Part shown: piece after piece, positions 7,669-60,528 of the stretch
How positions within the stretch are numbered: the stretch's first letter is position 1
Layout of the letters: the number at the start of each line of letters is the position of its first letter
Assembly (NCBI GenBank): GCA_964507445.1
Contig: CAZDQF010000020.1
Coordinates: 6,528-70,527, forward strand
Reading direction: 5' to 3'
Length of the DNA stretch: 64,000 nt
From: an uncultured Isosphaeraceae bacterium
GTDB lineage: Bacteria; Planctomycetota; GCA-002687715
Notes under the pieces: generated by a model
Database searches by the model: none
What the model saw: only the letters and a program-made list of their open reading frames with translations
Told to the model about the DNA's origin: nothing
Position numbers and translations under genes: made by a program

Positions 7669-10089
7669 TCAGAGGTAGCGGAAGCGTTTGCGCAAGATCC
7701 ACTCGACGGTGAGCAGCGCCAGGAAGATGATCGGGAGCCACCTGAGCCAGGGGCTCTCCTCGTCGCGGAGATGCGTGAACTGGCGTTGCCGAGGAATCTC
7801 CACGGTCCCGGAGGCCACGTCGTCGAGCAACGACCTGGCCCCGTCGAGGGTCACATAGGAGCCGGAGGTCCGACCGGCGATGGTCTTGAGGGTGACCTCG
7901 TCCAGGATCGGTTCGCGGCGCTCCACGTCCGACGTGGTGACGAGGAATGACACCGGTGAGAGCTTCTCGTCCGAGAGCCCGTCCTCGGGCTGGATCCAGG
8001 CGTGATAGTCACCGGTCACGGAGCCGTGGAACGAGTGCTCGAAGACACCCGGCTGGACCTTGCGCAGGCGGATGGTCTCTCGACGACCCGAGGACTCCGG
8101 GTACTCCAGGATCACCTCCTGGTCGGCCTTGTCGGACGGCCGATAGGTGCGGTCCTTGATGTAGGCCGTGAGGGTGATCAGGTCGCCCTGCTGATACCTG
8201 GTCCGGTTGGAGACGAGCCTGAAGCGCTTGTCTCCCTGGAACAGCCGCGCCCTCGCCAGGTGGCGCACCACGTTGCCCCAGAACCGGTGGTGGGTGAACG
8301 GGCCCTCCCAGGCGAACCAGCGCCACGTCGCGTCCAGGGCGGTGAAGAACACCGGGCCCTCGCCGTAGGTGCCGGCCACCAGGATGGGGTACGGGCCGTG
8401 GAGGTTGCGGTCGCTCTCGTGGACCGCGAGCACCTGGCTGCCCGGCTTGGCCTTCTTCACCCGCGCGAACCAGTACAGCTCCTCGAGCCGATCCGGTTCG
8501 TTGCGGTCTTCCCAGATGCGCCGGTTGCGATCCGGGTCCTTCTCGTCGTCTTCGATCTGGGTGATCGGGTGGTTCACCCCCATGGGGGTGAGCTTCACTC
8601 TGAAGCCCAGGTCGTCACTGCCTCCCGCTTCCTCGCTCGGGTCGATGAGCACGGGGAGGATGTCAGCCAGGGGTGTGTCCTTGAACGCCCGCGGACTGAA
8701 CCGGTCTCCGGCGACCATGGCGAAGCCGCCGCCCTCCGCGACGAACTCCCGGATCAGAGCCATGTTCTTACGCGCCTTCTCCGGGTCCGCGGCGGAGAAC
8801 AGGTCGCTCATGGGGTCCACGTCACCGAAGATGATGACGTCGTACCAGAACAGCTCCTCCTTGCTCGCGGGGAACTGGGTGAGCGGCTGCAGGTTGCCGG
8901 CGCCGAGGGTCGACTCCTGGGGGAACCCGTGATCCGCCTCCAGCAGCAGGCACTGGCAGATGAAGGCGTCGTTGGCGCGGACCAGGAAGTCCTTCAGGGA
9001 GCGGTACTCCCACCTGGGGAACGACTCCACGTAGAGCACCTTGATCTTCTGGTCCTTGACCAGGACCTCGATGACCCGGGAGTTGTTGTCTTCGGTGTGC
9101 TCCGTGGGGATCGGCTGCACCCGCACGGTCCAGCGCTTGCGGCCCTCTGAGAGCGGGCGGTACAGCATCCTGAACGGCTGGTCTTCCTCGCTGGCGCTCA
9201 AGGTCACGCGCTGGCGATGGATGACGTTGTCGTTCTCCAGCAGCTGCAGGGTCACCTTCTCACCGGGGAACCCTCGCTGCCGCACCTTCAGGTCGATGCT
9301 GACCGTGTCTTCGACGAGCACCACGCTGGAGTGGAGCACGGAGGTGAGCTCGATGTCCTTGGTCGCCTTCGGGTCGCCGACCCCGACGCAGTGCACCGGG
9401 ATCTTGCGGCGGGCCGCGATCTCCACCACCTCCGCCGGAGGCGGCCCGGCGGTGTTCTTGCCGTCCGTGATGATGACCACGCCGCCGACGGAGGAGCTCT
9501 TGACCTCCGGCTCGTCGAGGATGCGTTCCAGGGTGCTCCCGAGGGTCGTGACCCGGTCTCGGGGCTCCAGGTCGGCGATGCCGGAGATGCCCTGCAGGCG
9601 CTCGCCGAAGGAGTAGAGGCGGACCCGGTTCTCCTCCCCGAGCTTCTCGAGGAAGGGCACCTCGCCTTCACCGAGCACCTTCTTGACCAGGCCGAGCCGG
9701 GTCAGGCTGTCCAGCGGGGTGCCGGCGGGGAGCTGGGCGGCGCCTCGGAGGCGGTCCGCCAGCCCGGGGTTGGTCTGGTAGTCGTCGTTGTGACCCATGG
9801 AGGCGCTGGCGTCGACCAGCACGATGGTGAGCGTCGGCTTGCGCTCCACCACGGTGGTCTGCATGGCCGGGTCCATGAGCAGGAGCGCCACGAAGATGAG
9901 GACCGCGATGCGGAGCAGCGTCAGCCCGTGGCGGACCAGCGCCGGGACGCCTTCGCGGCCCATCCGATAGAACACGGCGGCGAACCCGATGACGGCGGGG
10001 ACGATGACGAGGAAGATGACCCAAGTCGGGGGAGCGCTGCGGAACACCAGCCCTTCCGACACCACCTCCGATTCCAGCAACCAGGTCAT
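7669..10089 (-). CDS. membrane-anchored von Willebrand factor A (vWA) domain protein of the Bat/aerotolerance-type cluster
   Basis: This is track ORF 7669..10179. I place the start at MTWLLESEV at 10089, where it forms an ATGA overlap with the upstream stop. It has N-terminal TM helices and a vWA MIDAS-like motif, IVLVDASASMGHND. A C-terminal TM helix is also present. Confidence 0.75.
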   Translation of the reverse strand: MTWLLESEVVSEGLVFRSAPPTWVIFLVIVPAVIGFAAVFYRMGREGVPALVRHGLTLLRIAVLIFVALLLMDPAMQTTVVERKPTLTIVLVDASASMGHNDDYQTNPGLADRLRGAAQLPAGTPLDSLTRLGLVKKVLGEGEVPFLEKLGEENRVRLYSFGERLQGISGIADLEPRDRVTTLGSTLERILDEPEVKSSSVGGVVIITDGKNTAGPPPAEVVEIAARRKIPVHCVGVGDPKATKDIELTSVLHSSVVLVEDTVSIDLKVRQRGFPGEKVTLQLLENDNVIHRQRVTLSASEEDQPFRMLYRPLSEGRKRWTVRVQPIPTEHTEDNNSRVIEVLVKDQKIKVLYVESFPRWEYRSLKDFLVRANDAFICQCLLLEADHGFPQESTLGAGNLQPLTQFPASKEELFWYDVIIFGDVDPMSDLFSAADPEKARKNMALIREFVAEGGGFAMVAGDRFSPRAFKDTPLADILPVLIDPSEEAGGSDDLGFRVKLTPMGVNHPITQIEDDEKDPDRNRRIWEDRNEPDRLEELYWFARVKKAKPGSQVLAVHESDRNLHGPYPILVAGTYGEGPVFFTALDATWRWFAWEGPFTHHRFWGNVVRHLARARLFQGDKRFRLVSNRTRYQQGDLITLTAYIKDRTYRPSDKADQEVILEYPESSGRRETIRLRKVQPGVFEHSFHGSVTGDYHAWIQPEDGLSDEKLSPVSFLVTTSDVERREPILDEVTLKTIAGRTSGSYVTLDGARSLLDDVASGTVEIPRQRQFTHLRDEESPWLRWLPIIFLALLTVEWILRKRFRYL

Positions 10090-12353
10090 GCTTCCCTCCT
10101 TCGAGAACGCATGCCGAAGATCTGAGACAGGGCGGTCTCGATGGCCAGCACGGCGGCGCCGAACAACAGGAACCACCACCAGCTTCGGCTGGACCGGTCA
10201 GAGGCGGTGGCCTCCTCCACACCTTCGATGCCGTCCAGGAACCGCACGCCCTCGCCGGGGAAGCTGGCGACGATGTAGTCCTCGTCCACGCGGGACAGGT
10301 CCGACTCCTCGGCGTCCACGTTGACCGCGATGTGGATGGGGTTGGGGTCCTTGAGCTCTGCCTCACCCGTGCGTTGGAGGTCCAGCCGGTAGGTGCCGGC
10401 CTTGTCGAGGTTGCCCGTCTTGATCTCGTAGCCCCGCTCGTCTTCGACGGCCAGGGGCTTGACCACGCTCAGCTGTTCCCCGTCTCTCGAGATGACGACC
10501 TCCTGGACGAAGGAGCGGAGCAGGCGCTCGTAGGATTGCCCCACGAGCAGGTTCTCGTGACGCTCCTCCTTGCGGGTGAGGTAGTAGGACAACTCGCGGG
10601 CGAGCAGCAGGTACGTCGGCAGCGACTGCATCCCGTTCCAGTTCTCGTCGCCGCCGGCGGTGGCGAACAGGATGCAGCGTCCCTTGCCCAGCACCTTCTC
10701 CAGGATGAGCGGCTCCGGCGTGGGCAGCGCGGCCTTCGGTCGGTCAAGGTAGGCGAGCACCGACACCGCCGGGTCGTCCGGGACCTCGACGCGGTAGTAG
10801 CGGTAGACCGGCGTGGCCACCGTCAACCAGACGGAGATGGCCGGGTCGGCGAAGTAGCTGAGCGCCGGGTGTTCCAGGTTGGGACGGGTGATCTGGAACG
10901 GGAGGTCCATGAACATGTCCTCGCCCGCCGCCGCCCGCAGCTTGGCAGGCAGGACGCCCTCGCCGTTGCGGTAGAGCCGCTCGTTGGCGGTGGTGGCCTG
11001 GGTCTTGTCGCCGACGAACACCAGCAGGCCCCCACCTGCTTCGACGAAGCTCTGGATGTCTGCCGCCCGTCGCGGAGAGATCAGGGCCACGTCCATCAGC
11101 ACCAGCAGGTCCACCTCCTTCAGGTCGGCGCTGTCGAAGCCCACCTCCTGGACCACCTCGAGCTCGAAGTCGCTCCCGGAATCCCGGTCACCACCGGGGC
11201 TCATGGCGGCGCTGAAGAAGAACGACTCGGACTCGCCCGGCTCCGGGCTGGGGTCGCCGTCCACGACGAGGGTCTTGATCTTGCGGCGCACCTCGAGGGC
11301 GAGGCCCCTGCGGTTGTCCTTCGCCAGGCTGTCGGACCGGAACCGGGCCTCCACGTAGTGGCTGCCGGCGGACCGGAACGGCTGACGGAACTCGACGGAG
11401 TAGAGGCCTCCCGGCGGGATGGCCTCCACGTCCCGGAGGTCCACGGGCTCCGACGCACCGTCCACGAAGAGGTGCACCGCGCCGCCCTGGGGGCGGCTGC
11501 CGAAGTTCTGCAAGGTGACCGTGATCGCCGCCGGAGTGCCCGTCACCACGGCCTTGCTGCGCTTGGACACGGAGATGATGGCCACGTTGTCCGTGGTGGT
11601 GTCCGCCGGGCCCACGATGTTCAGCGTCGCCTTCCGCGCGCGCACCTCCTGGACCAGGGAAGCCAGAAGCTGCTGCGGCGGCGCCGCGTCGCCCTCCTGG
11701 TCCTCCTGCGCCACGTCCGAGGGCGGAGCGAACCCCACCTTCTGAAGGTCGGAGAAGACGAACACCTCGGCCCCCTCCTCCAGGTCGTCGAGGGCGGCCA
11801 CGGTCGAGCGCAGGGCGCCGATGAGATCGGTCGCGCCGTCCCCCGCGTCCATCCCGTCCACGACCGTGAGGACGCGGTCCAGATCGGACACCTGCTTGAG
11901 GACGAGGCTCGCAGGCTTTCCGGCGGTCACCAGGGTCACGGAGTCACCCCGCTCCTGTTGCAGCCCCTCGATGAGCTCGCGGACCTGCCGTTTGGCCCGG
12001 CTCATGGGAGTGCCGCCGTCGGACTCGGCCAGGGACATGCTGAAGCTGTCGTCCACCACCACCACCACCTCGCGGGGGCCGCCGCCCAGACCGCCGATGA
12101 TGGCGCCAGGGTTCAGGCGCGGGGCGGCGAGGGCCAGCACGAACAGCAGGATGGCCAGGATGCGCAGCAGCAGCAACAACAGGTGCTCGAGGCGGATCCG
12201 CCGCTGCGTCTTCTTGAACGCCCGCAGCAGAAACTCCATGGCGGCCCAGGGGACCTTCTTGTAGCGCTGCCGTGCGAACAGGTGGATGAGGATGGGGATG
12301 GCCGCGGCGCCGCCCCACAACAGCATGCTCGGGATTCCAAAGAGGCTCCCCAT
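10086..12353 (-). CDS. BatA-N-terminal-domain / vWA-like membrane protein
   Basis: The N-terminus is MLLWGGAAAIPILIHLFARQRYKKVPWAAMEFL (aerotolerance regulator BatA N-terminal signature). It also carries VVVVVDDSFSMS. It sits directly after DUF58 and MoxR. Confidence 0.8.
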   Translation of the reverse strand: MGSLFGIPSMLLWGGAAAIPILIHLFARQRYKKVPWAAMEFLLRAFKKTQRRIRLEHLLLLLLRILAILLFVLALAAPRLNPGAIIGGLGGGPREVVVVVDDSFSMSLAESDGGTPMSRAKRQVRELIEGLQQERGDSVTLVTAGKPASLVLKQVSDLDRVLTVVDGMDAGDGATDLIGALRSTVAALDDLEEGAEVFVFSDLQKVGFAPPSDVAQEDQEGDAAPPQQLLASLVQEVRARKATLNIVGPADTTTDNVAIISVSKRSKAVVTGTPAAITVTLQNFGSRPQGGAVHLFVDGASEPVDLRDVEAIPPGGLYSVEFRQPFRSAGSHYVEARFRSDSLAKDNRRGLALEVRRKIKTLVVDGDPSPEPGESESFFFSAAMSPGGDRDSGSDFELEVVQEVGFDSADLKEVDLLVLMDVALISPRRAADIQSFVEAGGGLLVFVGDKTQATTANERLYRNGEGVLPAKLRAAAGEDMFMDLPFQITRPNLEHPALSYFADPAISVWLTVATPVYRYYRVEVPDDPAVSVLAYLDRPKAALPTPEPLILEKVLGKGRCILFATAGGDENWNGMQSLPTYLLLARELSYYLTRKEERHENLLVGQSYERLLRSFVQEVVISRDGEQLSVVKPLAVEDERGYEIKTGNLDKAGTYRLDLQRTGEAELKDPNPIHIAVNVDAEESDLSRVDEDYIVASFPGEGVRFLDGIEGVEEATASDRSSRSWWWFLLFGAAVLAIETALSQIFGMRSRRREA

Positions 12354-12356
12354 GAG

Positions 12357-13255
12357 CTACCGGGCTCCCGTCCGCTGGGCCAGATAGGTGCTGAGGGCGA
12401 CGTCCAGGGAGCGCGAGGTGTCGAGCACCACGTAGTCCATGCGCCCGCCGATGCAGGCTGACTTGATGCGCGTCTGGAACTCGGTCAGCTCCTTCTGGTA
12501 GGCCTCCCTCAGCGCCCTCGGGTCCGCCAGCACGCGGGCGTCCACCTCGAGGCCCTCGAAGCGGGTCATGCGTTCGAACGGGAACTCCAGCTCGTCCTTG
12601 TCCAGGACGTGGAACACGATGACGTCATGGCCGCGATGGGCCATCCGGTGCAGACCGCGCAGGATGCCGTCTTCGTTCTCGTCGAACAGGTCGCTGAGCA
12701 CGATCACGAGGCTCTTGGTGCGCAGCCGTTCGGCGATCTCGTTGAAGATGGTCCCCAGGTCCGTCTCTCCGTCCGGCTCCTGCCCGGAGAGCTCGGACAG
12801 GCAGTTTCGGAAGTGCGCCTGGCTGCTGGACGGGGGAAGGAACGTGCGCACGCCTTCGCCGAAGGTCACCAGGGCGCCCGCGTCCCGCTGCTTCTGCACC
12901 AGATACAGCAGCGCCGCCGCCACGAACTTGGAGTAGTCGAGCTTGGTGACCTCGTCGGACCCGTAGGCCATGGACTTGGAGGTGTCCACCACCACGTAGG
13001 CCTTCAGGTTGGTCTCTTCCTCGAACTCCTTGATGTAGTAGCGGTCGCTCTTGGCGTAGACCTTCCAGTCCAGGTAGCGGATGTCGTCGCCGGGGACGTA
13101 CTCCCGGTGCTCCGCGAACTCCACGGACGATCCCTTGTAGGGGGACTCGTGCAGCCCGGACATGAACCCCTCGACGATCAGGCGCGCCTTGACCTCGAGG
13201 TTCCCGACCTTGTTCAGGACCTTGGGGTCGAGGTACTTGCTGTAGTCCTCAGCCA

Positions 13256-13256
<1 letters not shown>
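12357..13256 (-). CDS. DUF58 family protein (MoxR-associated, vWA-like)
   Basis: Motifs seen: GLHESPYKGSSVEFAEHREYVPGDDIRYLDWKVYAKSDRYYIKEFEEE (canonical DUF58 core). Its start shares one nucleotide with the MoxR stop (TGATG). Confidence 0.9.
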
Positions 13257-14284
<1,028 letters not shown>

Positions 14285-34053: not shown

Positions 34054-34126
<73 letters not shown>

Positions 34127-34136
34127 CTCCTACACA

Positions 34137-34173: not shown

Positions 34174-34404
34174 CCCACCTGGCGCGCGCCTCACCCACGT
34201 CCCATCCGCCGGGTGCTGCCGTCGAGGCTCTGCATAGAACGGACGTCCCGGGAGGATCGGGGTAGGAGCCCCTACGGCTCCCGGTCGTCCTTGCTGTTCG
34301 GCCGAACACTGTGGCGTTCGGCTCGGGACACGGGTCTGGGCATCACGGGTGCTGCGTCGGCGTCGTCACCATGTTCGACGCCGGCGATCGGACGGTTCGA
34401 TGCC

Positions 34405-34535
34405 TTGGCGCGCAGGGCGCAGGCCGAGGTTGTTGTCGGCGTTGTCGGGGTCGTTCCCGTTGCGGTTCGCAGAGCGTGCGTTGCGGGCGTCGTTGTTGAA
34501 GCTGCCGCCGCGGTTGACGCGTTTGCGGGCGCCTT
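34405..34535 (-). repeat. DGR template repeat (TR), about 129-131 nt, starting 32 nt downstream of the RT stop
   Basis: I hand-aligned it to 36647-36777 (offset 2242). Read in the VR frame it encodes ...GARKRVNRGGSFNNDARNARSANRNGNDPDNADNNLGLRPAR with 10 AAC codons. All differences from the VR fall on TR adenines (T on the plus strand). Confidence 0.9.
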
Positions 34536-34567
34536 GGACCCATCTCCCTGAATGTGCCTGGTTCAGG

Positions 34568-35551
34568 TCACGGAGGGTGAAACCAGCTACGTCGCAGGGC
34601 TCTGGTTGATCCATGGCTGAGGTGTTCTGTCACGGACCGGATCGCCGCCGCCAGCTGTTCGTCGCTGATCAGGCCGGCGTCGTTCTGGCGAAGGCGCTGC
34701 GCGACGCGTTTGCGCGTGCGCCGCAGGTTCTCCGGGCGAAGGCGGCGCGTACCGCCGTACAGCCGCCAACCAAGAAACGGCAGTCCGCAGCGAGCGGGGG
34801 CGAGGATGGTGGCCCGTTCCTTCAGCGCCAGCCCGAGCTCATCGCCCAGGTACTGCTCCACCTCCCCACGGGCGTAGCGCAGCCGATCCCTGTCGTCATG
34901 GAACAGCACCATGTCGTCCATGTAGCGGACATAGCCCGGGACCCGCAGGGTCTGCTTCACTCGATGATCCAGCCGGGAGAGCACCATGTTGGCGAACCAC
35001 TGGCTGGTGAGGCTGCCGATGGGCAGGCCCACGCCGCCGTCACCGAGGGTCGCCATCACCAGATCGAGCACGCGACGGTCTTTGATCACACGAGCGATCG
35101 TGTCGGCGACGACGGAGTGCCGCAGAGACCCGAAGAAATGGCGAACGTCCATCTTCAAGAACCACTCGTGGGCTCGTAAAGCGCGTTGCGCATGGTCGAG
35201 CGCGGCGTGGGTACCCTTGCCACGGCGACAGGCGAAGGACTCGTGGATCATGCGCCGGTCCAGGTGTGGTTCCAGGATATCGATCAGGGCGTGATGAACG
35301 ACCCGGTCGCGGAACGGCGCAGCGACGATGAGCCGTTCCTTGGGGTCCGAGATCCGGAAGCAGTTCGGTCGGCCAGGACGCCATGCGCCCGACAGGAGCT
35401 CTCGCTGCAACGCGAGACACTCGAATTCTCGGCGGTCCATGAACCGAGCGACCACGGCGGCGTGACGCTTGCCCTGGGCGGCCCGCTGCGCCGCCCGCAG
35501 CAGGTTGTCGAACGCGATCACGTCGCGCCACAACCCTCCGACCCGTCTCAT
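34568..35551 (-). CDS. DGR-type reverse transcriptase
   Basis: I place the start at MRRVGGLWRDVIAFDNLLRAAQRAAQGKR at 35551, overlapping the avd stop (ATGA). Motifs seen: RISDPKERLIVAAPFRDRVVHHAL, LPIGSLTSQWFANMVL (the DGR-RT hallmark [IL]GxxxSQ) and YVRYMDDMVLF (YMDD catalytic box). Confidence 0.93.
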   Translation of the reverse strand: MRRVGGLWRDVIAFDNLLRAAQRAAQGKRHAAVVARFMDRREFECLALQRELLSGAWRPGRPNCFRISDPKERLIVAAPFRDRVVHHALIDILEPHLDRRMIHESFACRRGKGTHAALDHAQRALRAHEWFLKMDVRHFFGSLRHSVVADTIARVIKDRRVLDLVMATLGDGGVGLPIGSLTSQWFANMVLSRLDHRVKQTLRVPGYVRYMDDMVLFHDDRDRLRYARGEVEQYLGDELGLALKERATILAPARCGLPFLGWRLYGGTRRLRPENLRRTRKRVAQRLRQNDAGLISDEQLAAAIRSVTEHLSHGSTRALRRSWFHPP

Positions 35552-35964
35552 GAGACCTGCTCCACGGCGGGTCCGCCGGCGTCTCGCCGGGCATCGATCG
35601 TCATGCGCCAGCCATGGATCATGCGACCGGCCTCGTCGAGTCCACGCATGGCTGCCTCGAATCCGCGTGTCGGCATCACCTGGGCGTCCCGAGCGATGCG
35701 ACACAGGAAACGCATGCGCTCCATGCACAGGTTCACCTGGCGTAGGCTGCGTTCGCGTTCCCGTGGTTCATAACGAGACACCACCAGTCCCTCGACGACG
35801 TCGAGCGCGAGGTTCTCCACCCGTTGCGCCAGGGTGAAGCGGGCCGACTTGGGCCACTTTCGGGTGTGGTCGAGGAGCCATCCGGTGAAGCGTTCCCAAT
35901 GCTGCGCCACCAGCAAGTCGGTGGTCGCCTCACGGGCGCCCGGACGCCCGAGAGGAGCGCTCAC
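35548..35964 (-). CDS. avd: Avd-like DGR accessory variability determinant (four-helix-bundle, 23S rRNA intervening-sequence protein family)
   Basis: The GTG at 35964 overlaps the HRDC gene stop (GTGA). The 138-aa product reads ...HWERFTGWLLDHTRKWPKSARFTLAQRVENLALDVVEGLVVSRY....LRQVNLCMERMRFLCRIARDAQVMPTRGFEAAMRGLDEAGRMIHGW. It is basic and helical and sits immediately upstream of the RT, as in characterised DGRs. Confidence 0.8.
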   Translation of the reverse strand: MSAPLGRPGAREATTDLLVAQHWERFTGWLLDHTRKWPKSARFTLAQRVENLALDVVEGLVVSRYEPRERERSLRQVNLCMERMRFLCRIARDAQVMPTRGFEAAMRGLDEAGRMIHGWRMTIDARRDAGGPAVEQVS

Positions 35965-36521
35965 GACGAGCTCTCCTTCTCGGAGTCCCTGGTCCCTGGA
36001 TCCGCAGCCGCCAGCCTCTCGAGGATCGGCCCACCATGGCGCTCCAGCTTCGCCTTGCCGATCCCCTCGACATGCCCGAGCGCCGTCAGGCTGTCCGGCG
36101 CCGCCTTGATGATGGCGACCAGCTCTTTGTTGGTGAGCACGACGTAGGGAGGCACTCCCTCGTCGAGGGCCTTGCTCTGCCGCCACTCTCGCAGGGTGTC
36201 GAACTGCTGTCGTTGGCGCTCGTCGAGCCCGTCGCGGGGATCGGATCGGTCGCGGCCCTTGCCAGGCCTTCGTCCGCTGTTCTCCGTCGTTCGGTGAGTG
36301 TCGGTCGGCCCGGGACATTCCAAGGCCCGCCACGTCAGCACGCACAACAAATGGGCCACGCCGTTCACCAGGAAGAAGTGATCCTTGAAGGTCAACAACT
36401 CCTTGTCGGTGACGAATCGGTCCAGGGGTGTCGCATCGAAGCCGCCGAGGGTGGAAGAGTAGCGGAGGGTCATTAGTTTCAAACGCATGGCGGGAACCCC
36501 TGCCCCACCCCCGCCCTCCAC
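35961..36521 (-). CDS. HRDC-domain DGR accessory protein
   Basis: The C-terminal sequence LREWRQSKALDEGVPPYVVLTNKELVAIIKAAPDSLTALGHVEGIGKAKLERHGGPILE matches the HRDC (helicase and RNase D C-terminal) pattern. The N-terminal ~60 aa are unassigned. The start may be the internal ATG at 36488 or the one at 36473. Confidence 0.75.
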   Translation of the reverse strand: MEGGGGAGVPAMRLKLMTLRYSSTLGGFDATPLDRFVTDKELLTFKDHFFLVNGVAHLLCVLTWRALECPGPTDTHRTTENSGRRPGKGRDRSDPRDGLDERQRQQFDTLREWRQSKALDEGVPPYVVLTNKELVAIIKAAPDSLTALGHVEGIGKAKLERHGGPILERLAAADPGTRDSEKESSS

Positions 36522-36634
36522 GCAAGCGGGTTTCTGATTTTTTTCCCATCCACCCTACGACATTTGGATCGCCACGTCCCGGCTACGCACGGGACGGGCG
36601 CTCCCAGGGGGGAAGTGGTGAAGTGGTGAAGGAA

Positions 36635-39600
36635 CTAAGGCGTGATCCGGCGCGCAGGGCGCAGGCCGAGGAAGAAGCCGGCGAAGCCGGGGGCGCCCCC
36701 GAAGCGGACCGCAGAGCGAGCGAGGCGGGCGTCGTAGCGGAAGCAGCCGCCGCGGCGGACGCGAAAGCGGGCGCCTAACCAGTGGGTGCCCAGGCCGTCA
36801 CCGGCGCGGGGCCGCCGTTCGGCGTAGAGGCCGTAGCCGTCCAGGCACCACTCCCAGACGTTGCCGTGGACGTCGTGGAGCCCGAACGGGTTTGGCTTCA
36901 GGGCTCCCACCGGGGCCAGGTTGATGAAGCCGTCGTTGAAGTCTCGTTGCAAGGTGCCGCCGCTGTAGCGCCGGGCGCGGGCGTCGTCGCCGATGTTGGC
37001 GTAACCGGTGAGGGACTTCAGGTCATCCCCGGTGGAGAACCGGGTGGTGGTGCCCCCTCGGCACGCCCGCGCCCACTGGGATTCCGTGGGCAGCTCCAGG
37101 CCCCAGCGGCGGCAGGCCTCCCGACTCTGGGGCCAGGAGACGTTGGTGACCGGCATGCGCGGGGTCATGCGCTCGCCCTGGTGGGTTTCCCCCGCCCGGT
37201 AGTGGGACGGGCTGTCGGCACTCAATCGCTTCCACTGCCCCTGGGTCACCTCGTGCTTGGCGATCAGGTAGGCGTCCAGGGTGACCTCGTGCACCGGGCC
37301 TTCGTTGTCGTAGACCTGATCGTCCACGTTGGGGGAGCCCGCGGGGTGGTCCTTGTCCGGAGATATCGCCCCCATACGGAACGTCCCCGCCGGGATCAGC
37401 ACCATGACCATGCCTTCGGCCCCCGAGTCGGGGTGCAGCTTCACCTTGCCTGGCCCCAGGGGTTCGCCCTCCCACTGCGGCCGTTGGCCGCTGGCCACGT
37501 GCCAGAACTCCCACAGACCGGAATCCCGGTCACGGCCCAGGGGCACCAGCGCCGGGATCGGTTTGAACTCGAGGTCGTGGTAGGGGGGCTCGGGACGAGA
37601 CAGGTCCGCCAGGCAGCGGCGCCAGGCCTCGGCATCGTCTTCCGCCAGCCGCCGCTCCAGGGCCACGGCGTCGGTGAGACGCTGCTCCATGCCGGAAACC
37701 GTCACCGTCTTCGCCGTCGGCTCCGCCGTCAGCGCGACCAACCCCGACACCAGGTCCCGCAGCTTGTCGTGACGCAGCTGGTCACCCTCGTCGGTGAAGG
37801 CCCACGACGACTTCACCGCGGTCGCGGCTTCCAGTCGCGTTCGCTCCGCGATCAACCCTGCGACCACCTTCATAGCGTCTTCTATCGATACTTCTGCGGC
37901 TTCGATCCGCTGTCGCAGGCGCTGCAGGGCCCGTGCTTCGCCAGACGTCAGGTCGTCGTTGTCTTCCTTCGTCTCAAGAGGCGCGAGCTCCGCCGACAGC
38001 TCCCTCTTCGCGCCCTCGGCGTCTCTCACCGTCGCTTCCGCCTTCGCCACTTCCGCGTGTATCACTCCCAATCGTGCGTGTGCGGCTGCCATACGCGCAC
38101 GATCCTCGTCGGCGTCGTACGTCCCTCGAACCCGCAGGGCCTTCAGTGCGGCTTCGTGCTCCGGCAGCCTTGCGGTCAATGCGCGTGTCTTGTCCAACCA
38201 AGCACGGTAGGCAGGGATGTTCTTCGGCACCACAGGCCACAGCGGACCGTCGGCTTCCTCCCGGCGGTCGTCGAGCCGACGACCGTCTGCTAGGCGTTCC
38301 CACTCGGTGAGGTGCGCGGCGGCCTTCGCCGCATTGGCTTCCGCTCGGAGCGCGAACGCCGTTGCTGCGCTCGCCCCCACGATCAGTATTAGCGCTGCGG
38401 CCCCGGTCATCGTTGCCAGGGCCGGGTTGCGCTGACCCCACCGAGCCAGTCTTGTCAGGGCGGACGCGGCACGCGCCTTGATGGGCTCGTGTTCGCGGAC
38501 ACGGCGTAACTCTTCGGCCAGGTCCAGCGCCGTCTGGTAGCGGCGGTCCCGGTCCTTCTCGAGGGCGGTGGCCATGACCACGGCCAGGTCCTTGGAGATG
38601 GCCGGGTTGAGCTTGCGTGGGTCCGAGGGTTCCCGGGTGGCGATGGTCTGAAACAGGCCTTGTCGGGTGGGGGAGTCGAAGGGGCGGCGGTAGGTCAAGA
38701 ACTCGTAGAGCACCACGCCCAACGACCAGACGTCGGTGCGGCGATCGAGGGTGACGGCGTTGTGGAGGAGCTGTTCCGGGGACATGTAGGCCGGGGTGCC
38801 GAAGAGGTCCCCCGCCCGGGTGAGGGTGACGCCCTCTCCGAGGGTGTCGTGGGCGAGGCCGAAGTCCAGGATCACCGGGGTGTCGTCGTCGCGGATCATG
38901 ACGTTGCCCGGCTTGATGTCGCGGTGGACGACGCCGGCTTCGTGGGCGGCGTGGAGCGCGCGGGCGATCTGCTCGACGATGCGCAGAAGGTGATCTAGTT
39001 TGGCTCCGTCGGGACCTGAGAGGTCGGTCGCCGTTCTCGAGTCATCGTCGGCCTCGTCGTCCGTCACGTCGAGGTCATCGTCGAACGAGGCGTGGAAGCT
39101 CTCCGTCGCGCCCCCGGTCGCATCCCGCATGGCGTTGATGGCGTCGGACAGGGCCTTGCCCTCCACGAGCTGCATGGCGATGAACGGCACCCCGTCCTCG
39201 ATGCCGCTCTCGTAGACCGAGCAGATCCCCGGGTGCTGCAGACGCGCCGCCACCTCCGCCTCGCGCTGGAAGCGGTTGATGGCGGCGCCCAACCCGGGGC
39301 CACGGATGTCCAAGATCTTCAAAGCCACGGAGCGGTTGAGGCGCTCGTCCCGGGCCTTGTAAACCACCCCCTGACCGCCCTGGCCGAGCATGGCCTCGAC
39401 CCGGTACGACCCGAACGTGGCCCCCACCTTCAGCAGGCCACCGCCCCCTTCGCCACCCACCGTGTCCCCTCGCACGACCTCCGCCACCTTCCGGGCGATG
39501 GTCTCCTCATACCCCGGGGACAGGGCCTGGTACGACTCGACCGACTGCAACCCTTCTCCAGCACGGTCCTCTTCCATCCGCGCGAGCAGGGCCGCCAGCA

Positions 39601-39682
39601 CGGCGGCGGGGAGCGGGGTCTCATCCGTCACGGGCGATTCTCCATGGCGGTCAGGAGCTGCCTCAAGGGCGATCCGCCCCAT
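36635..39682 (-). CDS. DGR target: transmembrane Ser/Thr protein kinase with extracytoplasmic coiled-coil region and C-terminal FGE-sulfatase-type C-type-lectin-fold domain carrying the VR
   Basis: Kinase motifs: GQGGQGVVYKA, VALKIL, HRDIKPGNVMI, DFGLAHD, GTPAYMSPEQ. There is one TM helix (LATMTGAAALILIVGASAATAFAL) and a long helical segment. The FGE-type domain reads GTFRMGA...HEVTLDAYLIAKHEVTQGQW...VTNVSW..A..CRW...LPTESQWARACRGG...HDVHGNVWEWC...RVRRGG. Confidence 0.92.
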   Translation of the reverse strand: MGRIALEAAPDRHGESPVTDETPLPAAVLAALLARMEEDRAGEGLQSVESYQALSPGYEETIARKVAEVVRGDTVGGEGGGGLLKVGATFGSYRVEAMLGQGGQGVVYKARDERLNRSVALKILDIRGPGLGAAINRFQREAEVAARLQHPGICSVYESGIEDGVPFIAMQLVEGKALSDAINAMRDATGGATESFHASFDDDLDVTDDEADDDSRTATDLSGPDGAKLDHLLRIVEQIARALHAAHEAGVVHRDIKPGNVMIRDDDTPVILDFGLAHDTLGEGVTLTRAGDLFGTPAYMSPEQLLHNAVTLDRRTDVWSLGVVLYEFLTYRRPFDSPTRQGLFQTIATREPSDPRKLNPAISKDLAVVMATALEKDRDRRYQTALDLAEELRRVREHEPIKARAASALTRLARWGQRNPALATMTGAAALILIVGASAATAFALRAEANAAKAAAHLTEWERLADGRRLDDRREEADGPLWPVVPKNIPAYRAWLDKTRALTARLPEHEAALKALRVRGTYDADEDRARMAAAHARLGVIHAEVAKAEATVRDAEGAKRELSAELAPLETKEDNDDLTSGEARALQRLRQRIEAAEVSIEDAMKVVAGLIAERTRLEAATAVKSSWAFTDEGDQLRHDKLRDLVSGLVALTAEPTAKTVTVSGMEQRLTDAVALERRLAEDDAEAWRRCLADLSRPEPPYHDLEFKPIPALVPLGRDRDSGLWEFWHVASGQRPQWEGEPLGPGKVKLHPDSGAEGMVMVLIPAGTFRMGAISPDKDHPAGSPNVDDQVYDNEGPVHEVTLDAYLIAKHEVTQGQWKRLSADSPSHYRAGETHQGERMTPRMPVTNVSWPQSREACRRWGLELPTESQWARACRGGTTTRFSTGDDLKSLTGYANIGDDARARRYSGGTLQRDFNDGFINLAPVGALKPNPFGLHDVHGNVWEWCLDGYGLYAERRPRAGDGLGTHWLGARFRVRRGGCFRYDARLARSAVRFGGAPGFAGFFLGLRPARRITP
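36647..36777 (-). repeat. DGR variable repeat (VR) at the 3' end of the target gene
   Basis: It encodes ...LGARFRVRRGGCFRYDARLARSAVRFGGAPGFAGFFLGLRPARR. It matches the TR except at 28 (30 if extended by 2 nt) positions, all of them TR adenines. It ends about 10 nt before the stop codon at 36635-36637. Confidence 0.9.
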
Positions 39683-58954: not shown

Positions 58955-60528
58955 CTAATTGACTATCCAGGAGCTGCCGTCCGAGAACGGGAACGTGAGG
59001 CTGGTCCATCCCCCCGCCGGCAAGCCCGAGGTCGACATCTCGTAGATGGCGTCGCTGGCGACTCCCGCCTGTGCGCCTGCGCCGAGGTTGCCGATGATCG
59101 TCCCGGCGGCGGTGCCCCCCATGGGGCCCGGGTCGGTGCTGCCTCCTCCTCGCGAGATGCCCATGATCGACTGGAACGTGTGAGTCGGGTCCGGGAGGTA
59201 GTTGTCGATGATGGTCTCGCCGGCGGAGGTGAACGTGATGTCGACGCTGTTGGCCGATCCGGTGTTCAACGCGCTGGGGACTCCCTGGAACGACACCCGC
59301 ACGTCCGTTGCAGTGGCCGATACCGAGACGGACCCTCCGAGGTTGGGCGAGAAGTCGGTCCATACCCCGGCTCGCGGCATCCACGTCAGGTATTGAGTGA
59401 AGCTGGGGCTGGGGCTGGCCGTGGGGAACTGGAAGTAGACCTCGCCGTTCGAGTGGACCCAGAACGTCGTGTACGTCGTCCCGTAGAAGGTGATGCCCGG
59501 CATGGTCCCGCAGTACGGGCTGTTCTGGTACGCGCTGTAGGCGACGGCGTCATCCCCCAGCGCGAGGTTGACAGGGGTGCCGGACGCCAGGATCGAGATC
59601 TCGACGGGTTGTGAGAGTTGGAACCCGTCGGGGTGACCGCAGGGCCGGTGCCGGTGCCCTGCAAGCCGTCGATGTCGAGGGACGACTCGGGGCTGTTGAC
59701 TTCCCACGGATTCAGGGGGCAGGCCGGCCCGCCGAGCTCCCACGACAGGATCTCGTTGAGTTGATTCAAACCGCCCGTGCCGCCCGTGAACCCGACGTAA
59801 GCGGTTCCGTTCGGCAAATTGAGGCCTGCGATCGGGTTGCCGGTCAGGTTCGTGCCACCGGTCAGGAAGTCAAACGCGACGCTCAACACGGGGACCGCGG
59901 TGTCGTCGAGGAAGATGTCCAGTGTCCCCGGAACGTAGCGTATGCACATCGTGTGGACCTGCCCGTCCGACAAGTTGGTGGCAGGGCTGACACGACCGAT
60001 CGAGTAGTACTCGTCGGCGCCGTTGGCGGTGGTGGGGATCGTCGGGATGAGGTGCACGCTGATGTGGTTCGCGTCCGGGTCCCCGAAGCCGCCGTTCTGA
60101 TAGGTGTCGAGTTCGACGACGAGCAGGTTGGCCATGGTGTTCGTTGGCACGAGCGGTTGGCTGGTATAGCCGAGGGAGCCTCCGCCCTGAGCCAGGGCGG
60201 CCGTGCCGGCGACGTCGTCATGGACGATGAACGTCATTCCGTCGGCGCCTGATCCGGTCGGCGTGATCCGGAATTCGAAGGTCGTCAGGAATCCCGACGT
60301 CACCGACTGCTGCGACTGAAACCACGCGCTCCCGGCCTGGCCATTCTGGGCGGGGGTGATCATGAGCGCGTTTCCCAGCTGTGCGGCGGCGCCGTTGAGG
60401 GTCATCCCTACCGTGGCGCTGAAGTCCGGGTAGGAGATCTGTGCCGGGGCCGCATTGCCCAGCCCGAACAGGATGACGGACAGGACGGCGCAGCATCGAC
60501 GCGCCGGTGTCAACGGAAGGGACGGCAT
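58955..60528 (-). pseudogene. secreted L-type (legume-like) lectin domain + NIDO-like domain protein, disrupted by a 1-nt frameshift at a C4 run (plus-strand G4 at 59630-59633)
   Basis: ORF 59386..60528 encodes a signal peptide plus a lectin domain (ADGMTFIVHDD, VVELDTYQNGGFGDPDANHISVH). After ...GTGTGPAV it becomes Arg/Ser junk. ORF 58955..59743, in the -1 frame, continues with meaningful sequence from ..PDGFQLSQPVEISILASG onward, including ITFYGTTYTTFWVHSNGEVYF. Confidence 0.7.

What the first reader, a model, noticed from the sequence alone, without database searches (positions are those of the whole stretch)
36647..36777. TR/VR pair: 28 mismatches in 129 nt, every one at a template adenine
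I hand-aligned TR 34407-34535 to VR 36649-36777 at a constant offset of 2242 with no gaps.
- On the coding (minus) strand the TR has 31 adenines.
- 28 of them differ in the VR: 17 A->T, 7 A->G and 4 A->C. Three are unchanged.
- There is no mismatch at any C, G or T.
- Extending by 2 nt adds two more A->G changes (AA vs GG at 34405-6 / 36647-8).

In the VR frame the TR encodes RVNRGGSFNNDARNARSANRNGNDPDNADNNLGL with 10 AAC (Asn) codons. This is the classic DGR design that maximises chemical diversity without creating stop codons. The present VR encodes RVRRGGCFRYDARLARSAVRFGGAPGFAGFFLGL.

About 90% of the mutable sites are changed, with a strong bias towards T that yields a Phe-rich surface. 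This is more extreme than I would expect from a single unselected homing event.
Basis: seen in the sequence. Interest (0 to 1): 0.85.

Follow-up and report, generated by a model that had tools for sequence, protein, structure and literature searches.

The report
Planctomycete retroelement rewriting a receptor kinase
This is a genuine, complete diversity-generating retroelement in the chromosome of an uncultured planctomycete that rewrites the ligand-binding tip of a membrane receptor kinase; it is a well-known kind of system, but the current allele is unusually heavily rewritten and identical in every sample examined.

Summary
TR 34407-34535 and VR 36649-36777 align without gaps, and all 28 mismatches fall at template adenines (chance about 3e-25).

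The pair belongs to a complete chromosomal DGR on the minus strand:
- a target gene encoding a Ser/Thr kinase, one transmembrane helix and an FGE-type C-lectin domain that ends in the VR
- an HRDC gene, an Avd gene and the RT gene
- the TR
- a structured RNA after the TR

Covariation in 19 relatives shows a duplex bracketing the TR and four further elements. Their order matches the Bordetella DGR RNA.

Inside the repeat, 27 of 29 adenines are changed (93%). This is the highest of 59 related TR/VR pairs (mean 60%). A second VR copied from the same TR, on another contig, shows 55%. The A-to-T bias is ordinary.

The three edge differences (AA/GG and the 5'-most A/T) are probably fixed donor/recipient differences, not mutagenesis.

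The VR is identical in every assembly examined, so ongoing diversification is not shown. The allele looks selected and fixed.

Verdict: a new member of a known kind, of moderate interest.

The parts
36635..39682 (-). DGR target gene. It encodes 1015 aa from the ATG at 39682; public gene calls use 39631, giving 998 aa. It is a transmembrane Hanks-type Ser/Thr kinase with a C-terminal FGE-type C-lectin sensor domain.
   Evidence: Pfam finds Pkinase at residues 93-383 (E 1e-40) and FGE-sulfatase at residues 760-1011 (E 3e-41). The kinase motifs are intact: GQGGQGVV, VALK, HRDIK, DFG and SPE. There is one hydrophobic helix at residues 425-447.
38534..39406 (-). Protein kinase domain. It lies N-terminal to the transmembrane helix and is inferred to be cytoplasmic.
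38342..38410 (-). Single predicted transmembrane helix (residues 425-447).
   Evidence: The Kyte-Doolittle maximum of 2.08 is here, and no other comparable peak is present.
36650..37405 (-). FGE-type C-lectin domain that carries the VR. It is inferred to be an extracytoplasmic ligand-binding module, not an enzyme.
   Evidence: The AF2 model has pLDDT 94.2. Foldseek matches FGE structures, and TvpA 2y3c has rmsd 3.1 A. The catalytic Cys pair of FGE falls in alignment gaps.
36649..36777 (-). Variable region (VR). The interior that is certainly templated is 36649-36775.
36649..36671 (-). IMH-like invariant GC-rich 23-mer at the 3' end of the VR (CCTCGGCCTGCGCCCTGCGCGCC). It is identical in the TR at 34407-34429. 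It is followed by GG in the VRs and AA in the TR.
36575..36596 (-). GC-rich hairpin about 50 nt downstream of the VR: CGTCCCG-TGCGTAGC-CGGGACG. It is a candidate target-recognition inverted repeat.
   Evidence: It folds. The P0002 locus keeps it through a compensatory C:G to G:C change. Relatives share the loop motif G-N-GCG-N-AGCC. Stems of 7 bp or more occur after 34% of VRs against 10% of control windows, p = 9e-7.
35961..36488 (-). HRDC-domain accessory gene (175 aa).
   Evidence: Pfam HRDC, E 1e-16. It is conserved upstream of avd in 59 of 67 relatives.
35548..35964 (-). avd accessory gene (138 aa, pI 10.2). Its GTG start overlaps the HRDC stop (GTGA).
   Evidence: Pfam bAvd, 48.6 bits against a cut-off of 40.
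34568..35551 (-). DGR reverse transcriptase (327 aa). Its ATG overlaps the avd stop (ATGA).
   Evidence: Pfam RVT_1. IGSLTSQ is at residue 178 and YMDD at residue 210. About 3,700 relatives were found, mostly from Planctomycetota.
34537..34548 (-). 5' strand of the duplex that brackets the TR (GGGAGATGGGTC). It pairs with 34325-34336 and is the counterpart of the Bordetella 'cPRT Stop' duplex.
   Evidence: A 12-13 bp duplex is present in 19 of 19 relatives with many compensatory changes. The mean z-score is -3.3 against shuffles.
34407..34535 (-). Template region (TR), downstream of the RT gene. The interior has 29 adenines, including 10 AAC codons.
   Evidence: It is exactly conserved in strain variants L002, L006 and L007.
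34238..34411 (-). Structured RNA 3' of the TR (Sp-like). In order:
- priming-duplex strand, 34398-34403
- stem-loop, 34355-34386
- primer strand, 34340-34345
- stop-duplex strand, 34325-34336
- hairpin, 34301-34322
- conserved CGAACAG, 34293-34300
- terminal two-part hairpin, 34250-34282
   Evidence: RNAalifold predicts 31 pairs, and 24 of them show compensatory changes. 91% of cells are paired, against 73% in shuffles (0 of 500 reach the observed value) and 35-47% when partners are slid. The covariance model finds one copy per locus on the RT strand, next to the TR wherever a TR was mapped, in 54 sources, 35 outside the training set.

Best explanation
This is a complete chromosomal diversity-generating retroelement of an uncultured Planctomycetota bacterium.

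**How it works.**
1. The cassette is read on the minus strand. A transcript containing the TR (34407-34535) and its flanking RNA folds into a scaffold. A 12-bp duplex brackets the TR. A stem-loop, a short TR-proximal duplex that presents a primer, and further hairpins follow. *(The RNA structure is shown by covariation. Its roles are inferred from the Bordetella structure.)*
2. The RT, with Avd and probably the HRDC protein, copies the TR into cDNA. It inserts essentially random nucleotides opposite adenines and copies the other bases faithfully. *(Inferred from the mismatch pattern and the RT signature.)*
3. The cDNA replaces the VR (36649-36777). The GC-rich 23-mer at the VR's 3' end and the downstream hairpin guide this step. 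*(Inferred.)*

**What it changes.** The VR encodes the ligand-contacting loop of an FGE-type C-lectin domain. This domain lacks the catalytic cysteines. It sits outside the membrane at the C-terminus of a single-pass Ser/Thr receptor kinase. The element therefore reprograms what the kinase senses, with about 1e16 possible peptides. *(Fold and motifs are shown. Topology and sensing are inferred.)*

**A second target.** The same TR, or an identical one, has also written the VR of a second kinase-lectin gene on another contig. That gene shares only the last ~1.1 kb, about 90% identical, with the window's target.

**The present allele.** 27 of 29 interior adenines are changed. The allele is identical in every assembly examined. 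The most likely history is one homing product, or the last of a series, that was selected and swept the population. Since then the element has been quiet or its new variants have stayed rare.
For: **TR/VR pair**
- All mismatches are at adenines, p = 2.6e-25.
- There are only two copies in the window.

**Cassette**
- Pkinase plus FGE-sulfatase target, HRDC, bAvd and RVT_1.
- The RT carries IGSLTSQ and YMDD. Avd has pI 10.2. Start and stop codons overlap.
- The same HRDC-Avd-RT order is found in 53 of 67 relatives.

**Target fold**
- The model has pLDDT 94.2. It matches FGE structures and TvpA 2y3c.
- The VR aligns on the FGE active-site loop, and the Cys pair is missing.

**RNA**
- Covariation supports the structure.
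- The covariance model gives one hit per locus, next to the TR wherever a TR was mapped, in 54 sources.
- The bracketing duplex is present in 19 of 19 relatives.
- The order of elements matches the Bordetella RNP (bioRxiv 10.1101/2023.10.23.563531).

**Hairpin after the VR**
- It is kept through a compensatory change in the P0002 locus, and relatives share its loop motif.

**Second target**
- 16 of 29 interior adenines are changed, with only 2 non-adenine mismatches.
- About 8.8 non-adenine mismatches would be expected from the 91% identity of the flanking sequence (Poisson p = 0.007).

**Selection and fixation**
- The 93% substitution is the top of 59 pairs and compares with 55% in the sister VR.
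- The binomial P of 27 or more out of 29 is 7e-5 at p = 0.6.
- The VR is identical in L001, L002 and L003. L002 is a strain with 15 SNPs in 10.8 kb.
- The target's 90% cluster holds only two sequences, which appear to differ only in start call (998 versus 1015 aa). Between them they are recorded on 23 contigs.

**Chromosomal context**
- The neighbours are housekeeping genes and there are no phage genes.
Against: - No VR polymorphism was seen. Current activity is therefore not shown, and only consensus assemblies could be examined.
- The one hint of heterogeneity is weak. Contig L007 starts exactly at the edge of the variable stretch, which could also be a repeat-induced break.
- With a single synonymous adenine site, selection cannot be separated from a high-misincorporation event within this sequence alone.
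- At p = 0.75 (fully random insertion), P of 27 or more out of 29 is 0.013, which is not overwhelming.
- Whether the P0002 contig belongs to the same genome is not proven. Tetranucleotide correlation is 0.96-0.975, against 0.987 within the window.
- The assignments of RNA helices to Avd binding, priming and stopping rest on analogy of order and position, not on experiment.
- The priming nucleotide is not a conserved adenosine here.
Confidence: 0.85

Rival explanations
1. The near-saturating substitution is an intrinsic property of this RT, or of one reverse-transcription event. For example, a dNTP-pool state might make the enzyme almost never insert T opposite A. No selection would then be needed.
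For: - The substituted fraction varies among related elements from 0.36 to 0.83.
- Position-specific rates of up to 76% are reported for the Bordetella enzyme (PMC7826257).
- At p = 0.75, P of 27 or more out of 29 is 0.013. At p = 0.83, P of 27 or more out of 30 is 0.23.
Against: - A second VR written from the same TR shows 55%.
- The family spread (sd 0.10) is close to plain binomial sampling around 0.6 for about 30 sites (sd about 0.09). This leaves little room for element-specific rates near 0.9.
- More than 75% substitution requires active discrimination against the correct nucleotide. This has not been described for any DGR RT.
Confidence: 0.15
2. The element is no longer active. On this view the VR is a relic of past homing, and its invariance across samples reflects loss of function rather than selection of a favoured allele.
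For: - The VR is identical in all assemblies examined. The exact target protein is recorded on 23 contigs.
- The remote VR has two non-adenine mismatches, as expected for an old event.
Against: - All parts are intact. The RT motifs, avd, HRDC and the TR with all its AAC codons are present, as are the RNA helices, the IMH-like segment and the hairpin.
- The TR is exactly conserved even in a strain 1.8% divergent.
- The local VR has no non-adenine mismatch in 98 non-adenine sites.
- The RT gene carries a single SNP in the L002 strain variant.
Confidence: 0.25
3. This is not a retroelement product. On this view the two copies are an ordinary duplication that diverged by point mutation, or a compositional artefact of GC-rich sequence.
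For: None beyond the high G+C content of the window.
Against: - 28 of 28 mismatches fall on one template base, p = 2.6e-25.
- No matches occur in shuffled sequence.
- The full DGR gene set is adjacent.
- The same design is seen in 56 of the 80 related loci.
Confidence: 0.01

Closest known systems
Treponema denticola DGR and its target TvpA (PDB 2y3c); 'Architecture C' HRDC-containing DGRs of Wu et al. 2018 (PMC5758913)
   Same: - The target domain is an FGE-type C-lectin fold with the VR at the extreme C-terminus. TvpA has the lowest rmsd, 3.1 A, and phmmer gives E = 2e-17.
- An HRDC accessory gene is present.
- The element is chromosomal, not phage-borne.
- It can act on non-adjacent targets.
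   Different: - Here the lectin domain is the outer part of a transmembrane Ser/Thr kinase, not a lipoprotein.
- Both avd and HRDC are present.
- The TR lies downstream of the RT.
- One adjacent target and one candidate remote target are seen here, against seven remote targets in Treponema.
Cyanobacterial DGRs that diversify Ser/Thr-kinase-CLec proteins and their dispersed paralogs (Vallota-Eastman et al. 2020, PMC7517822); kinase-domain target class b12 of Wu et al. 2018
   Same: - An N-terminal Hanks-type kinase is grafted onto a C-terminal diversified C-lectin domain.
- Paralogs elsewhere in the genome carry VRs that match the same TR.
   Different: - The phylum is Planctomycetota.
- A transmembrane helix between the kinase and the lectin predicts an external sensor, whereas most cyanobacterial examples were predicted cytosolic.
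- The two targets are a mosaic. Only the last ~1.1 kb is shared, at about 90% identity, and the rest is about 62% identical.
Bordetella phage BPP-1 DGR (mtd-avd-TR-brt) and its bRT-Avd-RNA particle
   Same: - Mutagenesis is adenine-specific.
- A GC-rich IMH-like end is followed by an inverted repeat after the VR.
- The RNA elements follow the same order: upstream stop strand, TR, TR-proximal duplex strand, stem-loop, primer strand, stop strand, hairpin followed by conserved adenosines, then a terminal stem-loop (against 10.1101/2023.10.23.563531).
   Different: - The gene order is target-HRDC-avd-RT-TR. The upstream stop strand therefore lies between the RT stop codon and the TR, not inside avd.
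- The hairpin lies about 50 nt after the VR rather than directly after the IMH.
- The inferred priming nucleotide is not a conserved A.
- The target fold is of the FGE subtype, not the Mtd type.
- The host is a bacterial chromosome, not a phage.
DGR-diversified putative antigen sensors of multicellular bacteria (Dore et al. 2024, PMC10907252; Kaur et al. 2020, PMC7159879)
   Same: A C-terminal FGE/CLec sensor is diversified by a chromosomal DGR and fused to a signalling domain, with protein kinase among the domains listed.
   Different: No STAND NTPase, vWA-MoxR or effector-associated domains are present in this target. No conflict-system neighbours were seen next to it.

Membership tests
Diversity-generating retroelement (DGR) | A template/variable near-repeat whose differences are confined to template adenines. 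| tested here: met
   28 of 28 mismatches are at adenines with none elsewhere, p = 2.6e-25.
Diversity-generating retroelement (DGR) | A reverse transcriptase of the DGR clade, with the [I/V/L]GxxxSQ motif and a YxDD catalytic box. | tested here: met
   IGSLTSQ is at residue 178 and YMDD at residue 210. Pfam RVT_1 matches. 56 of the 80 related RT loci also carry adenine-specific TR/VR pairs.
Diversity-generating retroelement (DGR) | The VR lies at the 3' end of a gene and encodes the exposed loop of a C-type-lectin (or Ig) fold. | tested here: met
   The VR ends 4 codons before the stop codon. The domain has the FGE/CLec fold with pLDDT 94, and TvpA is a match. Surface exposure of the variable residues could not be computed.
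Diversity-generating retroelement (DGR) | An accessory gene (avd, HRDC, MSL or CH1) is present in the cassette. | tested here: met
   bAvd (48.6 bits) and HRDC (60.7 bits) are both present. The pair is conserved in 53 of 67 relatives.
Diversity-generating retroelement (DGR) | A GC-rich IMH at the VR end, an IMH* in the TR that differs from it, and a GC-rich inverted repeat downstream of the VR only. | tested here: met
   - The 23-nt GC-rich segment is identical in the TR and the VR. It is followed by AA in the TR and GG in both VRs.
- The hairpin at 36575-36596 lies after the VR. It is kept through a compensatory change in the second target locus.
- Its function was not tested.
Diversity-generating retroelement (DGR) | Structured RNA flanking the TR: an Avd-binding stem-loop, a cis-priming duplex and a stop duplex. 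| tested here: met
   Covariation supports 31 pairs plus a 12-13 bp bracketing duplex. The model finds one copy per locus next to the TR. The roles are assigned by analogy only.
Diversity-generating retroelement (DGR) | Ongoing diversification, seen as VR polymorphism within or between populations. | tested here: inconclusive
   - The VR is identical in L001, L002 and L003. The exact target protein is recorded on 23 contigs.
- Only consensus assemblies could be examined.
- One contig breaks at the edge of the variable stretch.
- The degenerate scan of metagenome contigs found nothing, because that collection does not hold this organism.
Formylglycine-generating enzyme (catalytic FGE/SUMF1) | The pair of catalytic, copper-binding cysteines in the C-terminal active-site loop. 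| tested here: not met
   In the alignment to Streptomyces FGE (6muj/2q17), the C-H-D-S-Y-C stretch falls in gaps of the query. The only Cys in the VR is an A>T product of an AGC codon. The domain has the fold but is not the enzyme.
Hanks-type Ser/Thr protein kinase | Gly-rich loop, catalytic Lys (VAIK), HRD catalytic loop, DFG and APE motifs. | tested here: met
   GQGGQGVV is at residue 100, VALK at 119, HRDIK at 253, DFG at 273 and SPE at 301. Pfam Pkinase matches with E = 1e-40.

The most novel reading that the evidence does not exclude
In this Planctomycetota lineage one TR services a small repertoire of transmembrane receptor kinases. New kinases are recruited as targets by recombination of a portable 'sensor cassette' made of the last ~1.1 kb of the gene, the VR, the IMH and the hairpin. 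Individual receptors are then driven by selection to near-complete replacement of the template-encoded residues and are fixed population-wide. This would be a bacterial counterpart of selecting and freezing one receptor specificity from a programmable library.
Probability: 0.3. Interest if true: 0.55.

Novelty: new member of a known kind. Interest (0 to 1): 0.4.

Why it matters
**What is already documented.** The element type, kinase-lectin targets, HRDC and Avd accessory genes, remote targets and flanking RNA elements are all in the literature. The finding does not open a new category.

**What it adds.**
1. A clean natural example in which two VRs written from one TR can be compared: 93% against 55% of adenines changed. 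This gives an internal control for separating enzyme bias from selection.
2. Covariation support for the full set of TR-flanking RNA elements, in a large and mostly uncultured lineage with the order HRDC-Avd-RT-TR. More than 580 RT relatives were found among species-representative genomes. This backs the claim that the Bordetella reverse-transcription mechanism is general. It also yields a covariance model that can locate TRs directly.
3. A cultured relative, Engelhardtia mirabilis Pla133, that carries the same cassette. The biology of diversified receptor kinases could be tested there.

Tried and rejected
- **Degenerate VR scan of public metagenome contigs.** There were no hits, not even the window's own VR. 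That collection does not hold this organism, so the scan says nothing about VR diversity.
- **Protein search with only the C-terminal 221 aa, to catch contig-cut VR variants.** The best hit is 62% identical and even the full-length self protein is absent from the list. The search cannot see such fragments, so this is a null result.
- **Surface clustering of variable residues.** The predicted structure's coordinates are not exposed in the scripting environment. Only fold-level and alignment-level mapping was done.
- **P0003, the next closest target homologue (57% identical).** Its C-terminus has 44 non-adenine mismatches to this TR. It is not a target of this TR.
- **L092, a sister RT (86% nt identity).** It was examined as a possible template for the P0002 VR and rejected, with 14 non-adenine mismatches against 2 for the window's TR. 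Its 'TR' carries the VR-type 3' flank, so the 1.2-kb contig is a chimera or a rearrangement.
- **Rfam.** Only the tRNA matches. No curated family covers the post-TR RNA.
- **The hairpin after the VR as an intrinsic terminator.** This is unlikely because no T-run follows it.
- **Prophage or mobile-element context.** The flanks are housekeeping genes and synteny is kept in all strain contigs.
- **Same-genome test for the P0002 contig by composition.** The result is suggestive only. No record names that would give bin membership were available.
Full report
**1. The observation**

At a constant offset of 2242, window 34407-34535 aligns without gaps to 36649-36777.
- On the minus strand the first copy has 31 adenines. 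28 of them differ in the second copy (17 to T, 7 to G, 4 to C). No C, G or T differs.
- blastn returns a single gapless 128-nt alignment, 78.9% identity, E = 2.9e-29.
- The chance that 28 mismatches all land on adenines, given the composition, is 2.6e-25.
- A pattern with N at each template-adenine site matches only these two places in the window. It matches none in 100 shuffles.

**2. What surrounds it**

All parts lie on the minus strand, in this order:
- **Target gene, 39682-36635.** It has a Hanks-type kinase domain (residues 93-383) with an intact Gly-loop and VALK, HRDIK, DFG and SPE motifs. A single hydrophobic helix follows (residues 425-447). After it come an Ala/Glu/Arg/Leu-rich linker of about 300 residues and an FGE-sulfatase domain (residues 760-1011). 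The last 43 codons of this domain are the VR.
- **HRDC gene, 36488-35961.**
- **avd, 35964-35548.** The protein has pI 10.2, and its GTG start overlaps the HRDC stop codon.
- **RT gene, 35551-34568.** The protein carries IGSLTSQ and YMDD, and its ATG overlaps the avd stop codon.
- **TR, 34535-34407.**

A tRNA-Met gene lies at 34054-34127 on the other strand. The wider window holds housekeeping genes and no phage genes. They include enolase, pantoate ligase, FolB, shikimate-pathway genes, a BatA/VWA/DUF58 cluster, a sulfatase and efflux components. Relatives of the RT and the target are named mainly as Planctomycetota.

**3. The target domain**

- A model of the last 275 residues, built on 61 homologues, has mean pLDDT 94.2.
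- Foldseek places it with formylglycine-generating enzymes. TvpA, the Treponema DGR target (2y3c), has the lowest rmsd at 3.1 A, with TM 0.72.
- By sequence TvpA is the third-best PDB hit, E = 2e-17.
- In the alignment to Streptomyces FGE, the VR lies on the active-site loop. The catalytic Cys pair falls in gaps of the query.

The domain has the fold but is not the enzyme. This is as described for TvpA (PMC5758913). With the kinase on one side of a single membrane helix and the lectin on the other, the protein reads as a receptor kinase with a diversified external sensor. This topology is inferred, not shown.

**4. The RNA around the TR**

*Structure downstream of the TR.*
- The 175 nt downstream of the TR are conserved among relatives.
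- An alignment of 19 elements gives a consensus of 31 base pairs in six helices. 24 pairs show compensatory changes.
- 91% of cells are paired, against 73% in column shuffles (0 of 500 reach the observed value). When partners are slid by 1-3 columns, 35-47% are paired.
- A covariance model built from this alignment finds 54 copies in 85 sources. There is one per locus, always on the RT strand. Wherever a TR was mapped, the copy lies directly after it. 35 copies are outside the training set. None occurs at loci that hold only a VR.

*Duplex bracketing the TR.*
- The 12 nt just upstream of the TR (34537-34548, GGGAGATGGGTC) pair with 34325-34336 (GACCCGTGTCCC).
- An equivalent 12-13 bp duplex is present in all 19 relatives, with different sequences. 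The mean z-score is -3.3 against shuffles.

*Order of elements and comparison with Bordetella.* The order is:
1. upstream strand of the bracketing duplex
2. TR
3. 6 nt that pair with a downstream strand
4. stem-loop
5. that downstream strand
6. second strand of the bracketing duplex
7. hairpin
8. conserved CGAACAG
9. terminal two-part hairpin (coordinates)

This is the order found in the Bordetella bRT-Avd-RNA particle: cPRT Stop strand, TR, template:primer duplex, Avd-binding stem-loop, primer, Stop strand, stem-loop followed by A-minor adenosines, and bRT-binding stem-loop (bioRxiv 10.1101/2023.10.23.563531). That paper also predicted such elements in 207 DGRs, so this is corroboration in a new lineage, not a new principle. 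By analogy, cDNA would start opposite 34404 and stop at about 34536. Both are inferences. Rfam has no family for this RNA.

**5. The hairpin after the VR**

- About 50 nt past the VR lies CGTCCCG-TGCGTAGC-CGGGACG (36575-36596). No T-run follows it.
- Close relatives have hairpins at 28-75 nt with a shared loop motif, G-N-GCG-N-AGCC.
- Perfect stems of 7 bp or more occur after 34% of VRs, against 10% of control windows (p = 9e-7).
- Wu et al. found the same 34% among 372 DGRs (PMC5758913).

**6. Is the allele unusually mutated?**

I detected adenine-specific TR/VR pairs in 56 of the 80 related loci.
- Over 58 background pairs of at least 100 nt, the fraction of template adenines changed has mean 0.60, sd 0.10 and maximum 0.83. 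The window's pair (0.90) is the highest. The spread is close to plain binomial sampling for about 30 sites.
- Published per-adenine rates for the Bordetella enzyme are 51.6% in vitro and 30.65% in a reconstituted system (PMC7826257, PMC12875486).
- The 5'-most A>T and the 3' AA>GG are the same in an independent second VR, so they are probably fixed edge differences. Leaving them out, 27 of 29 adenines are changed.
- P of 27 or more out of 29 is 7e-5 at p = 0.6 and 0.013 at p = 0.75.
- The A>T share (59%) is not unusual. The family mean is 0.44 with sd 0.18, and 10 of 58 pairs are equal or higher. Close relatives pooled give 0.52. Adenine is also the base the Bordetella RT most often misinserts.
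- One AAA codon can give stop codons.

**7. A second VR from the same TR**

*The match.*
- The closest homologue of the target is P0002, 64% identical. It sits on contigs from the same sample series and has no DGR next to it.
- Its C-terminal 127 nt match the window's TR. 16 of 29 adenines are changed and only two other mismatches are present. It has the same 23-mer, the same GG and the same tail, RPARRITP.
- The two VRs share the substituted base at only 2 of 15 co-changed sites, so they are independent products.

*The mosaic.*
- The two genes are about 62% identical in DNA over the first ~1950 nt. They are 88-95% identical through most of the last ~1100 nt, falling to 81% in the final block that holds the VR. 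The similarity continues for about 75 nt past the stop codon.
- The hairpin there is kept through a compensatory C:G to G:C change.
- Two non-adenine mismatches are fewer than the ~8.8 expected from the flanking divergence (p = 0.007). This VR was therefore rewritten after the modules diverged.

*Alternatives and limits.*
- A sister RT contig (L092) fits far worse as its template, with 14 non-adenine mismatches.
- Composition suggests the same or a sister genome. Tetranucleotide r is 0.96-0.975, against 0.987 within the window and 0.79-0.91 for other Planctomycetota. Membership is not proven.
- Remote targets are documented for 45 of 372 DGRs (PMC5758913). Kinase-lectin paralog targets are documented in cyanobacteria (PMC7517822).

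**8. Is it active now?**

- The exact RT is recorded on 20 contigs.
- The VR is identical in three independent assemblies. One of them (L002) differs at 15 positions in 10.8 kb, none of them in the VR or the TR.
- The target's 90% cluster holds only two sequences, which appear to differ only in start call (998 versus 1015 aa). Between them they are recorded on 23 contigs.
- The P0002 VR is likewise invariant among its four cluster members.
- The TR is exact even in a strain 1.8% divergent.
- One contig (L007) begins exactly where the variable stretch ends. This is a weak hint of heterogeneity in that sample.
- Only consensus sequences were available, and two attempts to find variants were uninformative.

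The allele is therefore fixed at the consensus level, all parts are intact, and current activity is open.

**9. Verdict**

This is a real, complete, chromosomal DGR of a documented type. The distinctive points are:
- the near-saturated, population-fixed VR allele, best explained by selection
- the internal control provided by a second VR from the same TR
- the mosaic sensor cassette shared by two kinases
- strong covariation support for the TR-flanking RNA architecture in a large HRDC-Avd-RT-TR lineage (53 of 67 relatives)

That lineage includes the cultured Engelhardtia mirabilis Pla133 (L016).

Noticed in passing
L088 176-3103 and L090 176-3103 (VR-like segment at L090 2963-3089): A second kinase-lectin gene (P0002) carries a VR written from the window's TR, with no DGR beside it. 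Against the window's target it is a mosaic. The first ~1950 nt are about 62% identical. Most of the last ~1100 nt are 88-95% identical, and similarity continues ~75 nt past the stop codon. All three contigs end 175 nt upstream of this gene.
   Followed up: partly
window 34366-34614 (-): An 82-aa ORF covering the TR and the start of the structured RNA is called as a gene in the public assemblies (for example L001 6938-7186). It has no family match and is almost certainly spurious.
   Followed up: partly
L007 position 1 (= window 36667); L003, L004 and L005 ends (= window 34059-34080): One assembly's contig starts exactly at the boundary between the invariant 3' end and the variable part of the VR. 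Several short contigs end inside the tRNA-Met gene. Both could reflect population heterogeneity or repeats.
   Followed up: no
L092 1068-1221: In a sister element from another study (RT 86% nt identity), the sequence after the RT is TR-like but ends with the VR-type flank (GG ATCACGCCTTAGCTCC). This is either an assembly chimera across the shared 23-mer or a real deletion that joins the TR to the VR flank.
   Followed up: partly
window about 36603-36630 (-): A tandem CACCACTT x2 lies between the target's stop codon and the hairpin. It is largely conserved at the P0002 locus and may be part of the target-recognition region.
   Followed up: no
window 36204-36488 (-), HRDC protein residues 1-95: The HRDC accessory protein has an N-terminal region of about 95 residues with no Pfam match. 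tblastn matches in five sampled relatives span roughly 157-172 aa, nearly the whole protein, so this region appears to be conserved too (30-53% identity). Its role is unknown.
   Followed up: no
L016 (Engelhardtia mirabilis Pla133, NZ_CP036287.1 6091248-6108225); also L012 and L015: Relatives, including a cultured strain, carry the same HRDC-Avd-RT-TR cassette. They have a second target gene on the opposite strand, running towards the cassette just downstream of the TR RNA. In the window that position is taken by tRNA-Met and a HEAT-repeat gene.
   Followed up: partly
window 34054-34127 (+): A tRNA-Met gene lies about 110 nt beyond the 3' end of the DGR RNA, on the opposite strand and facing it. 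No integrase or other island marker was seen nearby.
   Followed up: partly
window 10086-14284 (-), 59386-60528 (-): A BatA/VWA/DUF58 aerotolerance-type cluster and a legume-lectin-domain protein are present. Neither is related to the DGR.
   Followed up: no
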